From: Lama glama
Taxonomy: Eukaryota
Assembly: GCA_028534125.1 (NCBI GenBank)
Contig: CM052816.1
Span: 8,248,001-8,312,000, forward strand
DNA length: 64,000 nt
Direction: 5' to 3'
The position numbers and the translations under genes are program-made. The notes beneath the pieces were generated by a model. It was given only the letters and a program-made list of their open reading frames with translations, did not search any database and was not told the origin of the DNA. Of the stretch, positions 1,761 through 29,795 are shown one piece after another (within the stretch, counting starts at the first letter, position 1; the number at the start of each line of letters is the position of its first letter).

Positions 1761-1931
<171 letters not shown>

Positions 1932-2256
1932 TAAGACCCTTCACAGGAGCCCCTCCAGACTTCAGGATTAAGGCCCTCAAGGAGTCCCAGCCCTGCCCCT
2001 GGCCCCTCAGGCCCACCATGGGGTCAAGGGGGATTAATCCAACAGACACTGATCCTGCGGTGATTCTCATAGGGAAAGTGTCAGTGGGAGGTATTCTGGG
2101 TTGGCACCACGACTGGGGGTGCTACTGGCACCCGACGTCCAGTGCCGGGAATGCTAAGCCCCTGCAATGTTTATAACATCCCCTAGAACAAAGACTCATT
2201 CCCCCAAAGATGCCAGCCACATTCATAGGATGCTCTGCAGGGGGGCCCTTGGGTAG

Positions 2257-2484
<228 letters not shown>

Positions 2485-3895
2485 TGAGTCAACAAGCATT
2501 TATTGAACACCAGCTGTCTGGGCTGGGCAGTGAGCGGTGGCGAGGACAGACAAGTGACCGGGACATTACGGGGCAGTGGTGAGTGCTGTGACTGCACACC
2601 CTGAGGTTGTGGGAGTGCATAGCAGGGCCACGAAGCAGGTCTCGAAGCACCAGGGGAGGATCCCAGAAGGCTTCCTGGGCAAGTGGCCTTTGAGCTAAGA
2701 TCCCAGAGGATAAGCAGGTGTTAGCAGTATGGAGACAGATCGGGCAGGTGTTCCAGACACAGAGAAAAGCCTCTGCAGAAGTCTGGAAGCAGGAGCTTGA
2801 CCCCTTAGGGGGACTGCAAGTGTTTCAACATGGCTGGGAGAGGTTGCAGAGGGTGATGTGTGACTGGACAGGAGGCCATGGTAAGGGTGAGAGGTCCCAG
2901 ATGCCAAGTTCTGGAGAGGAATGGCTGAGGGACTTGGACAGGACTTGTGGCCCCAAGGAAGTGACCCTGATGGATCCTGAGCCTCTGGCCTCTTGGCAGC
3001 TCTGTGTATTCTCAGGGAATATAGCAGCTCTGGGCCTAGACCTTGCCAGGGGACCCCGTAAGCAGGTAGGAAGAGCAACTGAGGGATCCCCAGCTGGTTG
3101 AAACAGAGAGGCCATCAGCATGCTAAGTGACAGCTGCTGAGGCCTCCAGCTCCTTCAGAACCAACTGCTCCCAGGTCTGGCATGGTGGCTTGGGATAGGG
3201 ACATGGGCCAAGGGGGTGGTAGCCAGCATGATGCCAGAACTGAGTCTAACCCTTAACCCCCAGCGGGAGCTTGCCCAGAAGTCTCAAAATGTCAGAATCA
3301 GTGATTCTTAAAATCACGGACTGGCGGGCCCAGATAGTGTCCAGATCAGACAGCGTCAGAACTGGAAGGGCTATTGGTCCCCGCCCCCATGGACAGAGGA
3401 GGCTTATTCCTCATGAACCCTCCAGGGTTCTGAGCCCAGGAGCCACAGAAGAATGAACTAGTGCTGGAGTGAGGAGCTGGGTGTCCCAGGCAGAAGATGG
3501 AGGCAGGGAGGGGCCGAGGGGTGCAGGGTCTACTGTCTTTGCTCTGGCAGGAGATTTCCTTGGTGTTTAGGAGCCACCACTGACAGGTATCCCCAAGTTC
3601 ATCCACCAGGTGTGGCCAGGCTGATGGAACCTATTAATATCTGCTTCTTGGATGACCCTGCCCCTGGAACTGTGCCAGCTAAGACCTAGATCATCCTGAC
3701 TTCTCCAGGGAGGCAGGGATGGATGGTCTCTGGGCTGTGGGTGGGAGAAATGGAGGCCCGAGGCAGAAGGCTTTGGCCTTGTGTCTGAATGGAGCCCCTG
3801 CCTCCCCTTCCCCACTCCCCTCCCATTTCTGTTTCTCCTCTCCCCCCGATTTCCTGCCTCCTCTCCCCCACATCCCCTCCTCTTGTCTGTTTCAG

Positions 3896-12113: not shown

Positions 12114-12162
12114 GAATCTTCCGAGAGCACCAACACGACCATTGAGGATGAAGACACCAAAG
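12114..12162 (+). CDS. CAMK2A: CaMKII alpha exon 15 (ESSESTNTTIEDEDTK)
   Basis: ggcag|GAATCT ... CCAAAG|gtagga; 49 nt. Confidence 0.96.
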
Positions 12163-12724
12163 GTAGGAGGGGCCTGGCCTTCAGCTCCTGGGCCTCCTGG
12201 CAGGCCCCCTTCATGGACAGCCCCTGGCCTGAAAGGGCCCCAAGGCCAACCTTGTGTCCTGTTTCTCTACAAAGAGCCACACTTTGGCTCCTTATAGACT
12301 GGGTGTACTGCGGGGCCTTTGCCCACACGAGGGACCTGGCCCACCAGCGGTCCCAGATGGACTTTTCTTCTTGTAGGGGTTATGTGTTTAATTTAACATG
12401 TATCAGAAAACATTAATTTAACACAGTCAAGTCGTAGATGTATCAGAGCAGTATAAATTTTCCTTTTGAAGTGTTCCTGAATTTTTAAAAAATGAATTGA
12501 TTTAAAAAACTTGAAGGAATCATAGTAAAGGAAGGGAAAGCAAAAATTCAGAAAGTTCAGCCAACTGGAACATGGGAAATACTGCCCCAGAGCAACTCCA
12601 AGTGCTGGGGTTGCTGTGGCCAGTGGCTAACAGTTTTCACAAGCCCTCAGACGAAAGGGAGCAAAACCCCAGATAACCATGGTCTGATAGCAGGAGAGGA
12701 AATACCAGGATGGTACTAGGAGTA

Positions 12725-12950
12725 ATGGCTGCCTTTCATGGGGCCCTCACTGTGTGCTAGACCTGCTTTCAAGTGCTTTACATTCACCTGAGCTTCACAA
12801 CAAACCTAGGAGGTAGGGACTGTGATCAACCCCATTCTACAGCCCAGAAACTGAGGGTTGGGTAAGCTGGCCTAAGGTCCCAGAGCTCCTGTAGGGTAGG
12901 GTTAGGATATGAATCCAGGCAGCGTGGCTCCAGGGCCGGGCTCACAACCT
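12725..12950 (-). mobile_element. MIR SINE
   Basis: cccattctacagcccagaaactgagg ... tatgaatccaggcagcgtggctccag; boundaries approximate. Confidence 0.7.
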
Positions 12951-13758
12951 TGACTAGGGTGGCTGGGGTATGTGGAAAGTATGCTTGGAGCTTGGAGGAG
13001 GGAGGAGGGAGCGTCGATTTCTGCCCATGGGACACCAAGTCCTTGGATGTGTTAGTGACGTCCTGCTGCTCTTTCTATACCCAGCTCTCCTTGTTCCCCC
13101 GGGACAGGGACCGGCGAGGGTGGGAGTTTCACACTGGGGTGTGTGTCAGAGACACCTGGGGAGCCTCTGAAGTGTAGAAAAACAGCGTTGACCTGGAGAG
13201 ATCACAGCTGTGCCAGTTTAGAGATGTCCAGGTGTTTAGATGATTTGCCTCTAAAGGCTTTCAATGACGTGGGAAAGAACATTTTATTATGTAATATTTT
13301 TGCACAATTGCCATTTAGGCTTATTTAAGGCAGTTTTAACACACCAAACGCCATGACTGCCTCCTAACTCTGTCGGGATGTTTGGAAGCCCAGCCCCACC
13401 CTGTGGGTGTCCCTCTCTGGTCATTCCCGGATGGAGGGGGACGAGGGTGGCTGGAGACAGTCACTTCATCACCACAGCCTGATGCTAGAGCAAATCAAGC
13501 TTCTATAATGGCACTAGGGACAACCTTTAAAAACACATTATCGTGAAGACTTCCCTTGGGATCAGGTCAGCATTTTGAGTATGACTTTCTAACTGCATTC
13601 TTAGCCTGCCCCTGTGGATTCCAATTCCACAGGTTTCAAGTGGGTTGAAACATTCCCCATATTTGAGGCATGCTGTCCCAATGGTAAGAGTTAGGTGCTG
13701 GAATTTTGAGGAGACTCGTTGTGACCCCATCATTCTAGTCTCAGAACAGACAGGGACT

Positions 13759-14161
13759 AGCTACCATCTGTGGGATTATGACTGAACGCCTCTAAGTCAG
13801 AATCCCGCCCAGGCTGAACGATACGGCAGCGCCATGAGAGCCTCGGTTGGCCTCAGAAAGCCGGTCTCCATCCGTCCCCGCCGTAGGGCCCTCGCCCGCG
13901 TGCCCGCGCGGCGCAGCATGCCCGGCCACGTGTGGGGACCAGGGTCCGGTGCAGAGAGGCCTTCGTTCTGGGACACGGGGCGCGGCCGGAAAGGCGGCCG
14001 CCCTCTTGCCCATCGCGCACCGCACGTTTGTGGGGAACCTGGTGCTAAACCATTCGTAGATGACCTGCTTCTGAGTCAGGGTTTCGTAAATAGCAGAGCA
14101 GCTCCCTCGCTGCGATCTATTGAAAGTCAGCCCTCGACACAAGGGTTTGTTAAAAAAAAGA
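13759..14161 (+). pseudogene. Retrotransposed 3' fragment of 28S rRNA with A-rich tail and 16-bp target-site duplication
   Basis: AGCTACCATCTGTGGGATTATGACTGAACGCCTCTAAGTCAGAATCC ... GATCTATTGAAAGTCAGCCCTCGACACAAGGGTTTGT matches the 28S terminus; A-tail at 14152-14161; AGAACAGACAGGGACT at 13743-13758 and 14162-14177. Confidence 0.95.
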
Positions 14162-14229
14162 AGAACAGACAGGGACTGTGGAGACAAACTGGCTCTGTGC
14201 TTCTTCCCTGGAGTCCATTTGCTGGGCAA

Positions 14230-14395
14230 CCTTAGACAACTCACTCAACTTCTCTGAGCCTCAGTTTCATTGACAGTAAAGACATGATGATAATAGTATC
14301 AATCTCAGAGGATTGTTGTGCAGATCGAATGAGAGGCTGCATATAAAGTGCTTACACAGTGTTTGGCACATGGTCATTGCTGAATAAATCTTAAT
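14230..14395 (+). mobile_element. MIR SINE
   Basis: cttctctgagcctcagtttc ... gattgttgtg ... aaagtgcttacacagtgtttggcacat. Confidence 0.7.
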
Positions 14396-16274
14396 TTCTT
14401 TTTTTTTCCCCCAAACTGGATCTTATGGTTGAATGACAGGAAGCCACATGACATTTTGTTGGAGCATCAGTTTTACTCAGAATGATTTTAAGACAAATAT
14501 TTATATGTTAAACAGACAGAGAAATATTTGTAATAGAATGTAAAATTTGTATGCACTATTAACGTGGAATGTGACCCATTAAAGACATTTTGCCCCTGGG
14601 GTAATGGCTCTGGGTTGCATCCCTGAGGTCTGACATTACCCTCTGCTTTAGAGACATCAGAATGGGACCATGTGGAGTGCTGAATTTTAATTCACATGTG
14701 CCCCTTTTAAAAGAGATGAATCTGAGGCCCAGAAAAGAGAAAGGGCACATCCAGGTTATTAATGGCAGAACTGGGTCCCCGTTTCCTGCCTCAGTTTCCC
14801 CACATGTAAAATGTCTTGTCTGATGAAAGATGCTGGCTCAGCCAGGAGCTTCTACCCCTTTTTGGCAGGAGAGAGGAGCCCTGTGCCTCCCTTAGCTTCT
14901 CCAGGCCTCAGAGAGAGTTTCCAGAGAACTATTTTCTGGTGTTAATTCGTTAAGTCTTCTTACTAAGTGAGAATAGCAGCTGGCTGGTGGATTCTGACCT
15001 AACATTAAAGTTAATTAGAAATGTCATCCTCCAGGGAACATTTTCCCCTGAGCAAAGAAAGGGACATTAATATTTCAGAACACCTTAGGCTTAATACACA
15101 GGCCTCTCACCTTCTGAATGGCACAGGGCTCTACCAGGCCTCCTCCCCACTGCCCTACCTCCGCCTAGTCAGCCCCTTGAAAGTTTAATTTCCTCTCCGA
15201 CCCAAAGTGTTGTCTCAGAATCTGGGCAGAGACATTCTGAGAAGTATTAGTTAGGAATGCTGATCCCATTTCAGCTTTGGCATGGTGTGTGACCTAGAGA
15301 GAGTGTCTTAACCTCTCTGGGGCTTCAGCTTTCCCATCGATAGGGGAGCACTCTTGGTTGGGTGAACACTTGGTACGTGAGAAATGCCAGAAGTTGTTAC
15401 TGAGTAGCTGCTGAATGAATCTTTCGTATAGCAATGGGACTGCTGAGGGCAGGGGAGGGGCTCAGAACCAGAATGAATTTCTCCAGCTCTAAGGAGCACC
15501 ACAACCCCAGATCTTTGGTCCCAGGGAATGAAGCTAGGGAGATTCCTGGCCACTAGGCTTTGACTGTTGGCAAACTTGGTGTCCTGAGTGGCTGGAGGCC
15601 AAGTTAGGCACTGTCTCAGGCTGCATTAATAGTGGTATTGTGCCCAGAACTGAGGAGGGCATAAAGTGCTACCCTAGATCTGATATTCTGCAATATTCAA
15701 GTCTCACTAGGGATTGTGTGCTCACACTCACAGAAGCAGCTAAACAGCTCAAGTACCCCTGAAGAGTAGATGGCCAGCCTGAGTCAGATCCTGCAAACCA
15801 CATCCTGGAGGCCTTCAGCCCTGAGAAGAAAAGACTGGTAGCAGGGACAGCATAGAGCCTGGGGGAGCAGGTGCATGCTGCAGGGCCCTAGAAGGCAGAA
15901 AGGGGACCAGAACTATCACCAGGGGCTTTTAGGGGGAGATTTCAACTTGAAAGAAGGAGGTGAGTGCAAATGGCGTAAGCTGTCCAGCAGGCTGCAAGCC
16001 CCAAGGTTCCAACCAAGACTGAACCGTCACGTATCAGGCTGCTGGGAAGTGTCCCTGCCTGGGCCAGAGGGTAGAGGATGTCCTCGGGGAAAACTTCCAA
16101 TTCAGAGCCTTCCAGTGATAACAAGCAGAGTTCTAACTTTGGGGGTACCAGGCGCTGCTCTCAAGCTTTACATAATGCATCATTATTTACAGAAATGAGT
16201 TGATATAAAGGGCTTGGAACAGTAGCTCGTTCTGAGTAAGGACCATATGTGTGTTAGTTATTTTTATTGATTTA

Positions 16275-16455
16275 TTCTTAACTCCATCCTCAGAACCACT
16301 CTATGAGGTAAGTACTATTAGTAGCTCCATTATACATATGGGAAACTGAGGTCCCGGGCAGTACCTTGCCCCAGGGCACGCAGTTATTAAATAGCAGAAC
16401 CCGGATCCAAACTCGGGATCTGGCTCTAGAATCCATGCCCTTCACCACTTTGCCA
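16275..16455 (-). mobile_element. MIR SINE
   Basis: ctatgaggtaagtactatta ... gggaaactgagg ... tctggctctagaatccatgccctt. Confidence 0.7.
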
Positions 16456-18330
16456 GCCCCTCTGAGGTGGCAGAGAGAAGCAGCCCACAGGAGACAGGAC
16501 ATTAAGCACAGGCTCGTGGAATGTCAAGCTGGAAGGGCTCCTAACGTTGTGCAGAGCAGGCAAGGGAGGGGCACGGGCCCCATAGCCTGCCAGAAGCACG
16601 GGGATTCTCACTGGGTCGTCACCCTGATTCTGTGTTGGAGAGGCTGGAATGAGGTGTCTCCTGGTGGAGGTGGGTTTCTCCCCATCCTCAGTCTCTAGCA
16701 TCTATGAAGGAGGGCAGAGGTGACCAGGAGGTCAGGCTGTTGGGCTCCTAGGGACAGAGACCACCGGGCAACTTGGGCAGTTCCAGGGAACAGGGCAAAG
16801 CAGCAGCGCCAGACCCTGATCTGGTCCATCTCTTGTTCATTCATTCATGCCGCCTATGTCCCTGCCCCAGGCAAGGCCCCAGACCGACCCGGCAGAGCTC
16901 ATGGTCTAAGACAGACTCATTCCCAGCCCTGGTGATTCTTAGCGGAGCCAGGAGATAAAGAATTGGTGGCTCACTGCAGTGACTGGCTTTGAAAATGGTA
17001 ACTTCGATGACGTTACGTCTACCGAGCACCCACCGTGTGCCAAGAGCTGTGTGCCAAGAGCTATGCAGGGCACGGGGCCCTGCCCTGAGGGGCAGGTGGT
17101 GTGGGGGAGAGGGGGATGGGCTTGGGAGCTGCATGGTCTGCTGGGGAGGGGTGGTCCACTGGAGCAGACTCTTTAACCTGTTGCCTCCAGTGTGACTGGA
17201 GTTCACCTCTGACTCCGAGGTGAAAATCACATGAGATTGTGCCGAGAGGCTGTAAGATTTGCAGGTTGAGCACACAGCACCGAGCGTACACACTCAGTAA
17301 CAAATGCCTGTGGGGCCAGGCCTGCTGCAGGCTCCAGGGATCAGTGAGCCTCCACGGAGCTCGTATTTGAGCTGGGAAATAGACAAGGACAGAGGCCCAA
17401 CATGACAGGGAGCGTGTTGGATCTCCTGGGTCCTGTTGAAAAGGCCTTGGGCTGGAGCCACACACTGCACTCAAAATGTTATGTGTCCTTGGGCAAGTCA
17501 TAGCCCTTACCAGGCTTTTGTTTCTCCAGTAGTTTGATAAGGAGTCTGAGTCCCTGGTCTCCAAGGGTTCTTGCAGCCTGAGTGTCCTGTGATTCTGTGT
17601 CCTCTGGGCCTGGGGTGAGCTCCCTGGTGTGAGGTGAGACAGGCGGGCACTGGTCATTGGTGAGGAAAGGGTGGGGACTGGGCCTCCACCAGGGGTGGTC
17701 GCCCTCCCACGCTTCCAGCCTGAGATGGACAATGTGTCACCTATGTCCACCTACCTCACCTGAGGCTGCTCCAGCGCACCAGCTAGCTGACCAGGTTTGA
17801 GGATAAGCTTGAGCCTGGGGGAGCAGGGGAGGAGGGCCTGCCCCTGGGAAACCACGTGAGGCTTCTGATAGGACGGTCCCACTGGGGTCGGGACACTTGG
17901 CTTCAAATTCCCTCATCGCTGAGGCTGAATCTCCTCATGTGTCAGAGCAGGGGAAACTGGCCTTGCCTGCTCCCCACTCCCAGGGTGTCTGTGGGGAGCA
18001 GATGCAGTAACGCGTGTGGGAGGATGCAGGAAATGGCACTTACAATGTGGACCTACTACGTGCTAGGCACATCTCATCCCACGCTAATGACAAACCTGGG
18101 AGAAGGGCACTGTTATCTCCATCTGATGGACTAGGAGACAACCTTGTGGCCCACAGTTGCACAGCTCATGAGGACCTGGGCTGGGGTTTAGATAAAACCC
18201 TTCTGGTACTGAAGTCTGGGTTCTATTCCTAGCATGTTTGGCATTGAATGTATGAGAGGTGATGGTGTCCCCATTATACGGATGGGAAAACTGGGGCTCA
18301 GAACATCATTCACCTAATATGAAAGCTGAC

Positions 18331-18463
18331 AGGGGAGGGTACAGGGCATGCTTGGCTTGCATGAGGTCCTGGGTTCAACCCCCAGTACCTCCATTAAAAT
18401 AAATAAACCTGATTACCTCCCCCCACAACCCCCTAAATTATAAGGGTTTAAAGAAAAAGAAAA
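18331..18463 (+). mobile_element. tRNA-derived SINE, camelid Vic-1-like (internally deleted head)
   Basis: GGGGAGGGTA...CATGCTT...GAGGTCCTGGGTTCAACCCCCAGTACCTCCA (B-box), AAATAAACCTGATTACCTCCCC body, A-rich tail. Confidence 0.75.
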
Positions 18464-18936
18464 TATGTCTAATCCTGTGCCAGAAAGACAGCAGCTGTTT
18501 GTGGTGTGACAGTGGCAGACGGGGGAGGCCAGGGCTTAGCAACTGGGATTCATTATGCCTAGGAAGTTCTGGAAAGCTCAGTGCCTGATTCCTACAGGCA
18601 CCCAAATAGCGCAAAAACTCACCCAGACCTAAGGGATGAGTAAGTCCCAAGCCCTTCCTTAGTGGCCCCAGTTTGGGCAATGGGGGAGTCCCTGGTTTGT
18701 GGCTGTTGGTGACAATGACCACAGATGACCTTGCTAGGATTCAGGTGGCCAAGCAAGGTGATGGGGAAGCATGTTTTGGAGTCAAGACCTGAGTTCAAAT
18801 CAGCCTAGAGTCAGAATGTCCAGCATGCATGCTGTTGGGAGGCAGAGGCGCCAACTGCGGCACTGGCTCTGCCCTTTGTGGTTGAGGGCACTTGCGCACC
18901 GTTTCACCTTTCTGGGCCTCATTTCTTCTTCCATGA

Positions 18937-19179
<243 letters not shown>

Positions 19180-21776: not shown

Positions 21777-22082
<306 letters not shown>

Positions 22083-25420: not shown

Positions 25421-25804
<384 letters not shown>

Positions 25805-29295: not shown

Positions 29296-29795
29296 NNNNN
29301 NNNNNNNNNNNNNNNNNNNNNNNNNNNNNNNNNNNNNNNNNNNNNNNNNNNNNNNNNNNNNNNNNNNNNNNNNNNNNNNNNNNNNNNNNNNNNNNNNNNN
29401 NNNNNNNNNNNNNNNNNNNNNNNNNNNNNNNNNNNNNNNNNNNNNNNNNNNNNNNNNNNNNNNNNNNNNNNNNNNNNNNNNNNNNNNNNNNNNNNNNNNN
29501 NNNNNNNNNNNNNNNNNNNNNNNNNNNNNNNNNNNNNNNNNNNNNNNNNNNNNNNNNNNNNNNNNNNNNNNNNNNNNNNNNNNNNNNNNNNNNNNNNNNN
29601 NNNNNNNNNNNNNNNNNNNNNNNNNNNNNNNNNNNNNNNNNNNNNNNNNNNNNNNNNNNNNNNNNNNNNNNNNNNNNNNNNNNNNNNNNNNNNNNNNNNN
29701 NNNNNNNNNNNNNNNNNNNNNNNNNNNNNNNNNNNNNNNNNNNNNNNNNNNNNNNNNNNNNNNNNNNNNNNNNNNNNNNNNNNNNNNNNNNNNNN
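29296..29795. other. Assembly gap (exactly 500 N)
   Basis: Run of N characters; the round length suggests a placeholder. Confidence 0.99.

What the first reader, a model, noticed from the sequence alone, without database searches (positions are those of the whole stretch)
13743..14177. Polyadenylated, TSD-flanked retrocopy of the 28S rRNA 3' end inside a CAMK2A intron
Seen: ~390 nt of GC/CpG-rich sequence running to the 28S terminus (...CCCTCGACACAAGGGTTTGT), then TAAAAAAAAGA, bracketed by an exact 16-bp duplication AGAACAGACAGGGACT (13743-13758 and 14162-14177). Established: 5' truncation, an A-tail and a TSD are the signature of LINE-1 target-primed reverse transcription, and 28S-3'-end retrocopies (SINE28-type) have been described in mammals. 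Inference: a polyadenylated rRNA, possibly a decay intermediate, was captured by L1. The perfect TSD with only partial CpG decay suggests a lineage-restricted insertion. It is sense to CAMK2A, so the pre-mRNA carries an rRNA-like structured segment that could be removed by rRNA-depletion probes or attract mis-mapped rRNA reads.
Basis: partly seen in the sequence, partly recalled or inferred. Interest (0 to 1): 0.7.

Follow-up and report, generated by a model that had tools for sequence, protein, structure and literature searches.

The report
28S rRNA retrocopy in CAMK2A intron
A 393-base reverse-transcribed copy of the tail end of 28S ribosomal RNA sits in an intron of the CAMK2A gene; it is real but is an ordinary member of a family of such copies already described in mammals.

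Summary
Window 13759-14151 matches the 3' end of eukaryotic LSU rRNA (Rfam RF02543, 61.2 bits, E 3e-13). An A8-containing tail follows at 14152-14161. An exact 16-bp direct repeat brackets the whole (13743-13758 and 14162-14177); no such repeat arose in 20 shuffles. It lies sense in a ~6.9-kb intron of CAMK2A.

It is one of at least 24 dispersed 28S-3'-end copies in this genome, by my grouping of the 41 matches; one search adds at least 8 places. By my reading, 23 of 24 end within 3 nt of the 28S terminus, 22 of 24 have A-rich tails, and 5' ends vary.

Against the one genuine rDNA contig found (L016), this copy differs at 5 of 155 non-CpG and 7 of 42 CpG positions. Only 1 of the 5 non-CpG changes is shared with another copy. 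It is therefore an independent copy of middle age, not a young one.

The best reading is LINE-1-mediated retrocopying of adenylated 28S rRNA, the SINE28 / 28S retropseudogene kind (PMC4994717).

The empty-site test in other species could not be run.

Interest is low.

The parts
13743..13758 (+). 5' target-site duplication, AGAACAGACAGGGACT. It is preceded by TC, so the inferred nick site reads TC/AGAA (pyrimidine-pyrimidine / purine run).
   Evidence: exact 16-nt repeat, spacing 419; 0 of 20 shuffles give any such repeat
13759..14150 (+). Body of the retrocopy: the last ~392 nt of 28S/LSU rRNA, including the terminal GC-rich expansion segment and ending ...GGGTTTGT. It is 5'-truncated relative to full-length 28S.
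   Evidence: RF02543, 61.2 bits, model to 3399/3401; 3'-anchored matches across the genome; alignment to genuine rDNA contig L016: 12 differences in 197 nt
14151..14161 (+). Tail T-A8-GA. The genuine rDNA has C where this copy has the first T (L016 continues CGCCC...).
   Evidence: (downstream sequences of all copies and of L016)
14162..14177 (+). 3' target-site duplication, AGAACAGACAGGGACT
12163..19102 (+). Host intron of CAMK2A (~6.9 kb), with a GT donor after the exon ending at 12162 and an AG acceptor before 19103. The retrocopy lies ~1.6 kb into it, in sense orientation.
   Evidence: exon peptides with flanking cag|...|gta and acag| splice signals; CaMKII_AD exons, best PDB match CaMKII alpha

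Best explanation
This is a processed retropseudogene of 28S rRNA. A 28S molecule, or a 3' fragment of one, that ended at or one base short of the mature 3' terminus carried a short non-templated A tail. That tail annealed to the T-rich 3' end left by a LINE-1 endonuclease nick in the CAMK2A intron.

LINE-1 reverse transcriptase copied the RNA from its 3' end and stopped after ~392 nt, giving the 5' truncation. Staggered second-strand cleavage 16 bp away produced the target-site duplication.

The copy was made directly from rRNA, not from an earlier genomic copy. It has since decayed neutrally and has no demonstrated function.

Shown: the 28S identity, the exact 3' end, the tail, the TSD, the intronic sense position, the family of like copies, the private nature of its mutations, and abundant LINE-1 in the genome. 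Inferred: that the enzyme was LINE-1, that the template was adenylated mature or decaying rRNA, and the age.
For: - Identity and ends: RF02543 over the gathering score, reaching model position 3399/3401; A8 tail, exact 16-bp TSD.
- No ETS/IGS sequence follows the 28S end here. The one genuine rDNA contig found (L016) continues into GC-rich spacer. This points to an RNA intermediate with a processed 3' end.
- Family: the 41 matches collapse, by shared flanks (my grouping), to 24 dispersed loci, 1 rDNA contig and 2 ambiguous short contigs.
- Of the 24 loci, 23 end at query position 390-393. 22 are followed by A-rich sequence. 9 have an exact flanking repeat of 12 nt or more abutting the 5' end (one of these, L002, is an A-run and ambiguous).
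- The 5' ends are scattered from query position 1 to 252, as expected for abortive reverse transcription.
- (last 120 nt as query) adds at least 8 further places. First-look candidates numbered 100-106, of which only 40 were scored each time.
- Independent derivation: of this copy's 5 non-CpG differences from rDNA, 4 are private and 1 is shared with a single other copy (L035).
- Across all rows only 10 non-CpG derived states are shared by 2-3 rows, and they show no consistent grouping.
- LINE-1 is abundant: for the ORF1 domain PF02994, 150 of 150 scored places were over the cut-off, out of 11,355 first-look candidates.
- The nick-site context TC/AGAA keeps the pyrimidine/purine pattern of the LINE-1 endonuclease consensus TT/AAAA (the consensus is recalled).
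- Literature: PMC4994717 (sections 9, 10, 12 read) describes the same anatomy in human and other mammals. bioRxiv 10.1101/2025.02.02.635956 (passages read) states that 28S rRNA integrates as pseudogenes by LINE-1 TPRT.
Against: - The tail is short (A8 within 11 nt), whereas tails run 33-98 nt up to the TSD in the other TSD-bearing copies. This fits shrinkage with age but is not explained further.
- The nick site matches the recalled hexamer at only 4 of 6 positions.
- No empty site was seen in any other genome, and no read-level check of the junctions was possible.
- The enzyme is inferred from hallmarks, not shown.
- The comparison with rDNA rests on a single 1,042-nt contig and only the last 197 nt. 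The upstream expansion segment could not be compared with genuine rDNA.
Confidence: 0.9

Rival explanations
1. The copy is a daughter of a genomic SINE28 master element transcribed by RNA polymerase III from internal promoter-like motifs, as Longo et al. proposed for human SINE28. On this reading it is not a copy of Pol I-made rRNA.
For: - PMC4994717 section 10 (read) reports A-box, B-box and IE-like motifs in human SINE28s. It also reports that nascent SINE28 transcripts fall under a Pol III inhibitor.
- The anatomy here (3'-LSU head, tail, TSD) meets that paper's structural description.
Against: - 4 of this copy's 5 non-CpG differences from rDNA are private, and no subfamily-defining shared substitutions appear among the 30 aligned rows.
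- The 5' ends of the 24 loci are scattered over 250 nt, unlike a SINE with a fixed promoter-bearing 5' end.
- The tails differ between copies and begin at the rRNA terminus rather than repeating a parental tail or flank.
- The paper itself says the elements are frequently re-derived from LSU rRNA (abstract, section 12).
- The motif definitions are in a supplementary table I did not open, so the motifs were not scanned here.
Confidence: 0.06
2. The segment is a DNA-level fragment of rDNA (an 'orphon') moved by recombination, repair capture or segmental duplication. The flanking repeat would be incidental.
For: - PMC4994717 section 9 (read) found that 8 of 37 human 3'-LSU fragments arose by segmental duplication.
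- In this genome C106841 holds two inverted matches, and several loci are represented by multiple short contigs, so duplication of such copies does occur.
Against: - The segment stops at the rRNA 3' terminus and is followed by A8, not by the GC-rich spacer seen in L016.
- An exact 16-bp duplication abuts both ends (0 of 20 shuffles).
- No second copy with the same flanks was returned by the own-genome searches. The only 100% match is the window itself, and the next best is 82% over 384 nt.
Confidence: 0.02
3. The segment is an assembly artefact: rRNA or rDNA reads wrongly joined into the CAMK2A intron.
For: - The assembly is fragmented (1,072,352 contigs), and rDNA is almost unassembled: only one short contig showed 28S followed by spacer.
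- A 500-N gap lies in the window.
Against: - A chimeric join would not create an A tail plus an exact 16-bp duplication of the intron sequence.
- The insert differs from the rDNA contig at 12 of 197 positions, mostly CpG transitions, so it is not made of rDNA reads.
- Weak extra point: three coded runs from two organism labels and two studies hold 0.82-0.83 of the sampled words of a 1,501-nt stretch of which the insert is 28%. The best holder may be the source sample, and nothing was laid.
Confidence: 0.01

Closest known systems
SINE28 (Longo et al. 2015, Genome Biol Evol 7:775; PMC4994717; abstract and sections 9, 10, 12 read)
   Same: - The head is derived from the terminal ~500 nt or less of 28S (human elements are 65-437 bp; this one is 392 bp).
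- It has an A-rich tail, a TSD (human 5-28 bp; here 16 bp) and a LINE-1-type nick-site context.
- It is low in copy number (27 loci in human; at least 24-32 here).
- It is dispersed, and the paper describes the elements as frequently re-derived from rRNA.
   Different: - The Pol III promoter motifs and Pol III-dependent transcription, which justify the name 'SINE', were not tested here.
- The scattered 5' ends and private mutations in this genome fit passive retropseudogene formation better than a self-propagating SINE lineage.
- Neither 'alpaca' nor 'camel' occurs in the paper's main text. Its genome table is a figure I could not see.
Human 28S rRNA retropseudogene (Wang, Pirtle & Pirtle 1997, Gene 196:105). 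I saw it only as reference 99 of bioRxiv 10.1101/2025.02.02.635956; the paper itself was not read.
   Same: The concept is the same: a reverse-transcribed 28S fragment integrated as a pseudogene. The citing preprint says such pseudogenes integrate through LINE-1-mediated TPRT.
   Different: It is in a different species and at a different locus. Details of that element are known to me only from the citing text.
[quoted passage not shown]
   Same: 28S fragments of 50-482 nt are carried into the genome by LINE-1 reverse transcription.
   Different: - Those chimeras are fused to LINE-1 sequence and often start near position 3636 of 28S.
- Here only 11 nt of tail lie between the 28S terminus and the TSD, with no LINE-1 part, and the fragment is anchored at the 3' terminus.
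- That anchoring is the pattern the preprint's supplementary legend gives for non-chimeric genomic 28S insertions.
LINE-1-mediated processed pseudogenes of mRNAs and small RNAs (general class; from established knowledge)
   Same: Shared hallmarks are 5' truncation, a 3' A tail, a TSD of about 7-20 bp, the absence of the parent gene's flanking DNA, and insertion at A-rich nick sites.
   Different: The template is a Pol I product that normally has no poly(A) tail. A short adenylation, as in nuclear surveillance or decay, must be assumed; it is inferred, not shown.

Membership tests
Eukaryotic LSU rRNA-derived sequence (Rfam RF02543) | Covariance-model score at or above the family's gathering score | tested here: met
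   61.2 bits against 50, E 3.1e-13, reaching model position 3399/3401
SINE28 (structural definition of PMC4994717) | Head derived from the 3' terminal part of 28S, of SINE-like length (about 500 bp or less) | tested here: met
   392-393 nt ending at the 28S terminus
SINE28 (structural definition of PMC4994717) | A-rich or simple-repeat tail directly 3' of the LSU part | tested here: met
   T-A8-GA at 14151-14161. It is short compared with the other copies.
SINE28 (structural definition of PMC4994717) | Target-site duplication bounding the element | tested here: met
   Exact 16 bp; 0 of 20 shuffles give any repeat of 16 nt or more
SINE28 (structural definition of PMC4994717) | LINE-1 endonuclease hexamer at the nick site | tested here: inconclusive
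   TC/AGAA matches 4 of 6 positions of the recalled TT/AAAA consensus, and the pyrimidine/purine pattern is kept. The paper's hexamer list (Jurka 1997) was not available to me.
SINE28 (functional definition of PMC4994717) | Internal Pol III promoter-like motifs (A-box, B-box, IE) and Pol III-dependent transcription | not tested
   The motif definitions are in supplementary table S2, which I did not open. Transcription cannot be assayed here, and read laying did not run.
SINE in the strict sense (amplifying lineage from genomic source copies) | Copies share diagnostic substitutions inherited from a master copy | tested here: not met
   4 of this copy's 5 non-CpG differences from rDNA are private. 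No consistent shared states appear among the 30 aligned rows (last 197 nt only).
LINE-1-mediated processed retropseudogene | The copy ends at the RNA's 3' end, lacks the gene's flanking DNA, is 5'-truncated, has an A tail and a TSD, and an autonomous LINE-1 is present in the genome | tested here: met
   (the rDNA contig L016 continues into spacer; this copy does not). (LINE-1 ORF1 domain: 150 of 150 scored places over the cut-off).
LINE-1-mediated processed retropseudogene | An empty (pre-integration) site exists in a related lineage | not testable with these tools
   No other mammalian genome is held (one search says the genome has no relatives here). Read laying did not run. Earlier-findings look-ups were empty.

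The most novel reading that the evidence does not exclude
The retrocopy has been kept as an orphan CpG island inside the CAMK2A intron. At 392 bp, GC 62.8% and CpG o/e 0.93 it still meets the usual CpG-island criteria (recalled).

It has lost only 7 of 42 CpG positions. Family members of equal or lower non-CpG divergence have lost 21-45% (L006, L026, L027, L005, L018).

That would fit germline hypomethylation, and possibly a lineage-specific regulatory or promoter-like element seeded by rRNA sequence in a neuronal gene. The numbers are small (my rough binomial estimate against a 28% expectation is p about 0.07), so this is a lead only.
Probability: 0.07. Interest if true: 0.4.

Novelty: new member of a known kind. 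Interest (0 to 1): 0.12.

Why it matters
It matters little beyond annotation.

- The segment should be masked as rRNA-derived. Over its conserved part, 185 of 197 nt are identical to the rDNA contig, including a run of 59 identical nt at the 3' end by my count on the alignment. This was not tested.
- As a homoplasy-free insertion it could serve as a presence/absence marker for the host lineage.
- The family as a whole gives dated snapshots of the terminal 28S expansion segment and of the 3' end at which rRNA was adenylated.

Tried and rejected
No read-level view of the junctions, of polymorphism or of relatives was obtained, and I did not resend any part.

2. Word shares from the look-up of sequencing runs cannot settle presence or absence. 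By my estimate, shares of 0.74-0.77 are what an empty site with identical flanks plus rDNA-shared words could give. Shares vary as much within one organism label (0.74-0.83) as between labels.

3. The own-genome search with Rfam RF02543 failed once. On repeat it scored only 4 of 2,389 candidates. It gave other 28S fragments (C14, C3) but no full rDNA unit, so the copy's upstream 196 nt could not be compared with genuine rDNA.

4. The cmscan alignment start at 13671 is rejected as the 5' end, because it has low posterior probability and crosses the TSD.

5. Long ORFs over the insert (149 aa on + and 150 aa on -) are rejected as GC-rich chance frames inside rRNA-derived sequence. They were not pursued.

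6. A chimeric LINE-1/28S insertion is rejected, because only 11 nt lie between the 28S end and the TSD.

7. Earlier-findings look-ups by place, relatives, sequence and words gave nothing on 28S 3' copies.

Full report
**The observation.**
- AGAACAGACAGGGACT stands at 13743-13758 and again at 14162-14177. The repeat finder lists the pair as an exact 16-nt direct repeat with spacing 419.
- Between the two copies, 13759-14150 matches the eukaryotic LSU rRNA covariance model (RF02543): 61.2 bits against a gathering score of 50, E 3.1e-13, ending at model position 3399 of 3401.
- The cmscan alignment nominally begins at 13671. That part has low posterior probability and runs across the 5' repeat, so I place the true 5' end at 13759 (AGCTACC...).
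- After ...GGGTTTGT come T, eight A, and GA (14151-14161).
- The insert has GC 62.8% and CpG o/e 0.93, against 0.26 and 0.11 in the 1-kb flanks.
- None of 20 block shuffles of the window produced an exact direct repeat of 16 nt or more at 100-1000 nt spacing.

**Host gene.**
- A search of the assembly with the CaMKII association-domain family found exons on the + strand at window 21792-21884 and 25574-25789.
- The last exon's best PDB matches are CaMKII alpha chains (8.6e-48). Delta, beta and gamma score at 4e-37 or weaker.
- Exon peptides from the ORF listing were located with their splice signals at 12114-12162 and 19103-19179.
- The retrocopy therefore lies about 1.6 kb into a ~6.9-kb intron, in sense orientation.

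**The family in the same genome.** The window is part of a 2.35-Gb assembly in 1,072,352 contigs.

The 393-nt query gave 41 matches; 106 first-look candidates were found and 40 scored, so counts are lower bounds. I read the flanks of all of them and grouped contigs with the same flanks. The result was 24 dispersed loci, one genuine rDNA contig, and two short contigs that cannot be assigned. The genuine contig is L016, where the 28S end runs on into GC-rich spacer.

Of the 24 dispersed loci:
- 23 end at query position 390-393. L029 is cut at 349.
- 22 are followed by A-rich sequence. L029 and L043 are not.
- 9 have an exact flanking repeat of 12 nt or more abutting the 5' end. One of these, L002, is an ambiguous A-run.
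- For two more loci (L004, L014) the contig examined was too short, but sister contigs show 9-10-nt repeats by eye.
- The 5' ends lie at query positions 1, 8, 46, 80, 85, 114, 117, 132, 135, 140, 172-204 (ten loci), 245 and 252.

L005 extends further 5', to about 445 nt. A second search with the last 120 nt returned at least 8 further places. LINE-1 is abundant: 150 of 150 scored ORF1-domain places were over the Pfam cut-off, out of 11,355 first-look candidates.

**Source and age.** I aligned 30 rows with L016, which covers the last 197 nt and carries 21 CpG.
- The window copy differs at 5 of 155 non-CpG positions (3.2%) and 7 of 42 CpG positions (6 of them transitions).
- Eleven rows are identical to L016 at all non-CpG positions, so L016 represents the recent source well.
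- Four of the window copy's five non-CpG changes are private. One is shared with a single other copy (L035).
- Across all rows only ten non-CpG derived states are shared by two or three rows, with no consistent grouping.

This is the pattern of repeated independent copying of rRNA, not of a lineage descending from a genomic master copy.

By non-CpG divergence, 13 of the other 23 loci are younger, 3 are equal and 7 are older. With recalled mammalian neutral rates of 1-2.2e-9 per site per year, 3.2% corresponds to roughly 15-32 million years. The Poisson interval on five events widens this to roughly 5-75 million years. A perfect 16-bp TSD has a probability of about 0.35 at that divergence (my calculation), so it does not argue for youth.

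**Mechanism.** The copy ends at the rRNA terminus with no spacer, carries an A tail and a 16-bp TSD, is 5'-truncated, and sits at a pyrimidine/purine junction (TC/AGAA). These are the hallmarks of LINE-1 target-primed reverse transcription acting in trans on an adenylated RNA.

None of the 24 dispersed copies keeps the C that follows GGGTTTGT in the rDNA contig. Three have T there (this one included), one has G, and most of the rest go straight into A. The template therefore ended at or one base short of the annotated terminus before adenylation. That points to processed or trimmed 28S rather than a read-through precursor. This last step is inference.

**Known relatives.**
- Longo et al. 2015 (PMC4994717; abstract and sections 9, 10, 12 read) describe the same anatomy as SINE28. 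They report 27 human loci of 65-437 bp with tails, TSDs of 5-28 bp and LINE-1 nick-site hexamers. They find the elements in all mammalian genomes examined and describe them as frequently re-derived from LSU rRNA.
- A 2025 preprint (10.1101/2025.02.02.635956; passages read) states that 28S rRNA integrates as pseudogenes by LINE-1 TPRT and cites a 1997 human 28S retropseudogene paper, which I did not read.
- A 2024 review lists SINE28 (PMC10946416; two passages read).

Structurally this element passes the SINE28 definition. The Pol III features were not tested. The strict-SINE criterion of shared diagnostic mutations was tested and not met.

**What could not be done.** No other mammalian genome is held. 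The empty site, polymorphism and read support at the junctions therefore remain untested. Word shares of public runs do not settle it. The scan's earlier notes hold nothing on 28S 3' copies, only an 18S-SINE chimeric retrocopy in another genome.

**Verdict.** The insertion is of middle age rather than recent. It is an ordinary new instance of a known kind, and interest is low.

Noticed in passing
L003 1758-1832 (G000:C353261), also L002, L006 and L040; compare window 13830-13860: Younger 28S retrocopies carry a tandem array of a ~10-nt unit (7.3 copies in L003) in the terminal expansion segment. The window copy and the older copies L005, L018 and L029 have a single unit, and TRF finds no array in the window copy. 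The dated copies appear to record a recent tandem expansion in this lineage's rDNA.
   Followed up: partly
3' junctions of all 24 dispersed copies; window 14150-14152: None of the 24 copies keeps the C that follows GGGTTTGT in the genuine rDNA contig L016. Three have T, one has G, most of the rest start the A tail at once, and six end 1-2 nt earlier. This suggests adenylation of a 28S end at or one base short of that C.
   Followed up: partly
5' ends of the family, query positions 172-204 (window 13930-13962): 10 of 24 copies begin within a 33-nt stretch at the 3' edge of the GC-rich expansion segment. This is as if reverse transcription often stalls on entering it. One of the ten (L019) abuts an N gap.
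   Followed up: no
window 13759-14150: CpG is retained unusually well (o/e 0.93; 7 of 42 CpG positions changed). Copies of similar or lower non-CpG divergence have lost 21-45%. L037, in a GC-rich context, shows the same pattern (17 of 153 non-CpG but 6 of 42 CpG positions changed).
   Followed up: partly
G000:C497458 (L016) and the assembly at large: Genuine rDNA is almost absent from the assembly. Only one 1,042-nt contig showed the 28S 3' end followed by spacer. The RF02543 search returned only dispersed fragments.
   Followed up: partly
L032 1113-2041 (G000:C3:8200671-8201599) and L031 1256-1662 (G000:C14): There are larger 28S-derived fragments elsewhere. L032 spans model positions 1889-3399 in only ~930 nt, so it has internal deletions. 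L031 spans 2412-2987. Their flanks were not examined.
   Followed up: no
G000:C106841:291952-292069 (+) and 490533-490650 (-); also the L014 locus, represented by eight short contigs: Some 28S-3' copies sit in duplicated DNA. There are two identical-scoring matches in opposite orientation on one contig. One locus also recurs on many small contigs with slightly different flanks.
   Followed up: no
window 14225-14395: Directly downstream of the 3' TSD is a stretch that, from memory, resembles the core of a MIR-type ancient SINE. It was not tested with any tool.
   Followed up: no
window 29296-29795: There is a run of 500 N (an assembly gap) downstream of the last CAMK2A coding exon.
   Followed up: no
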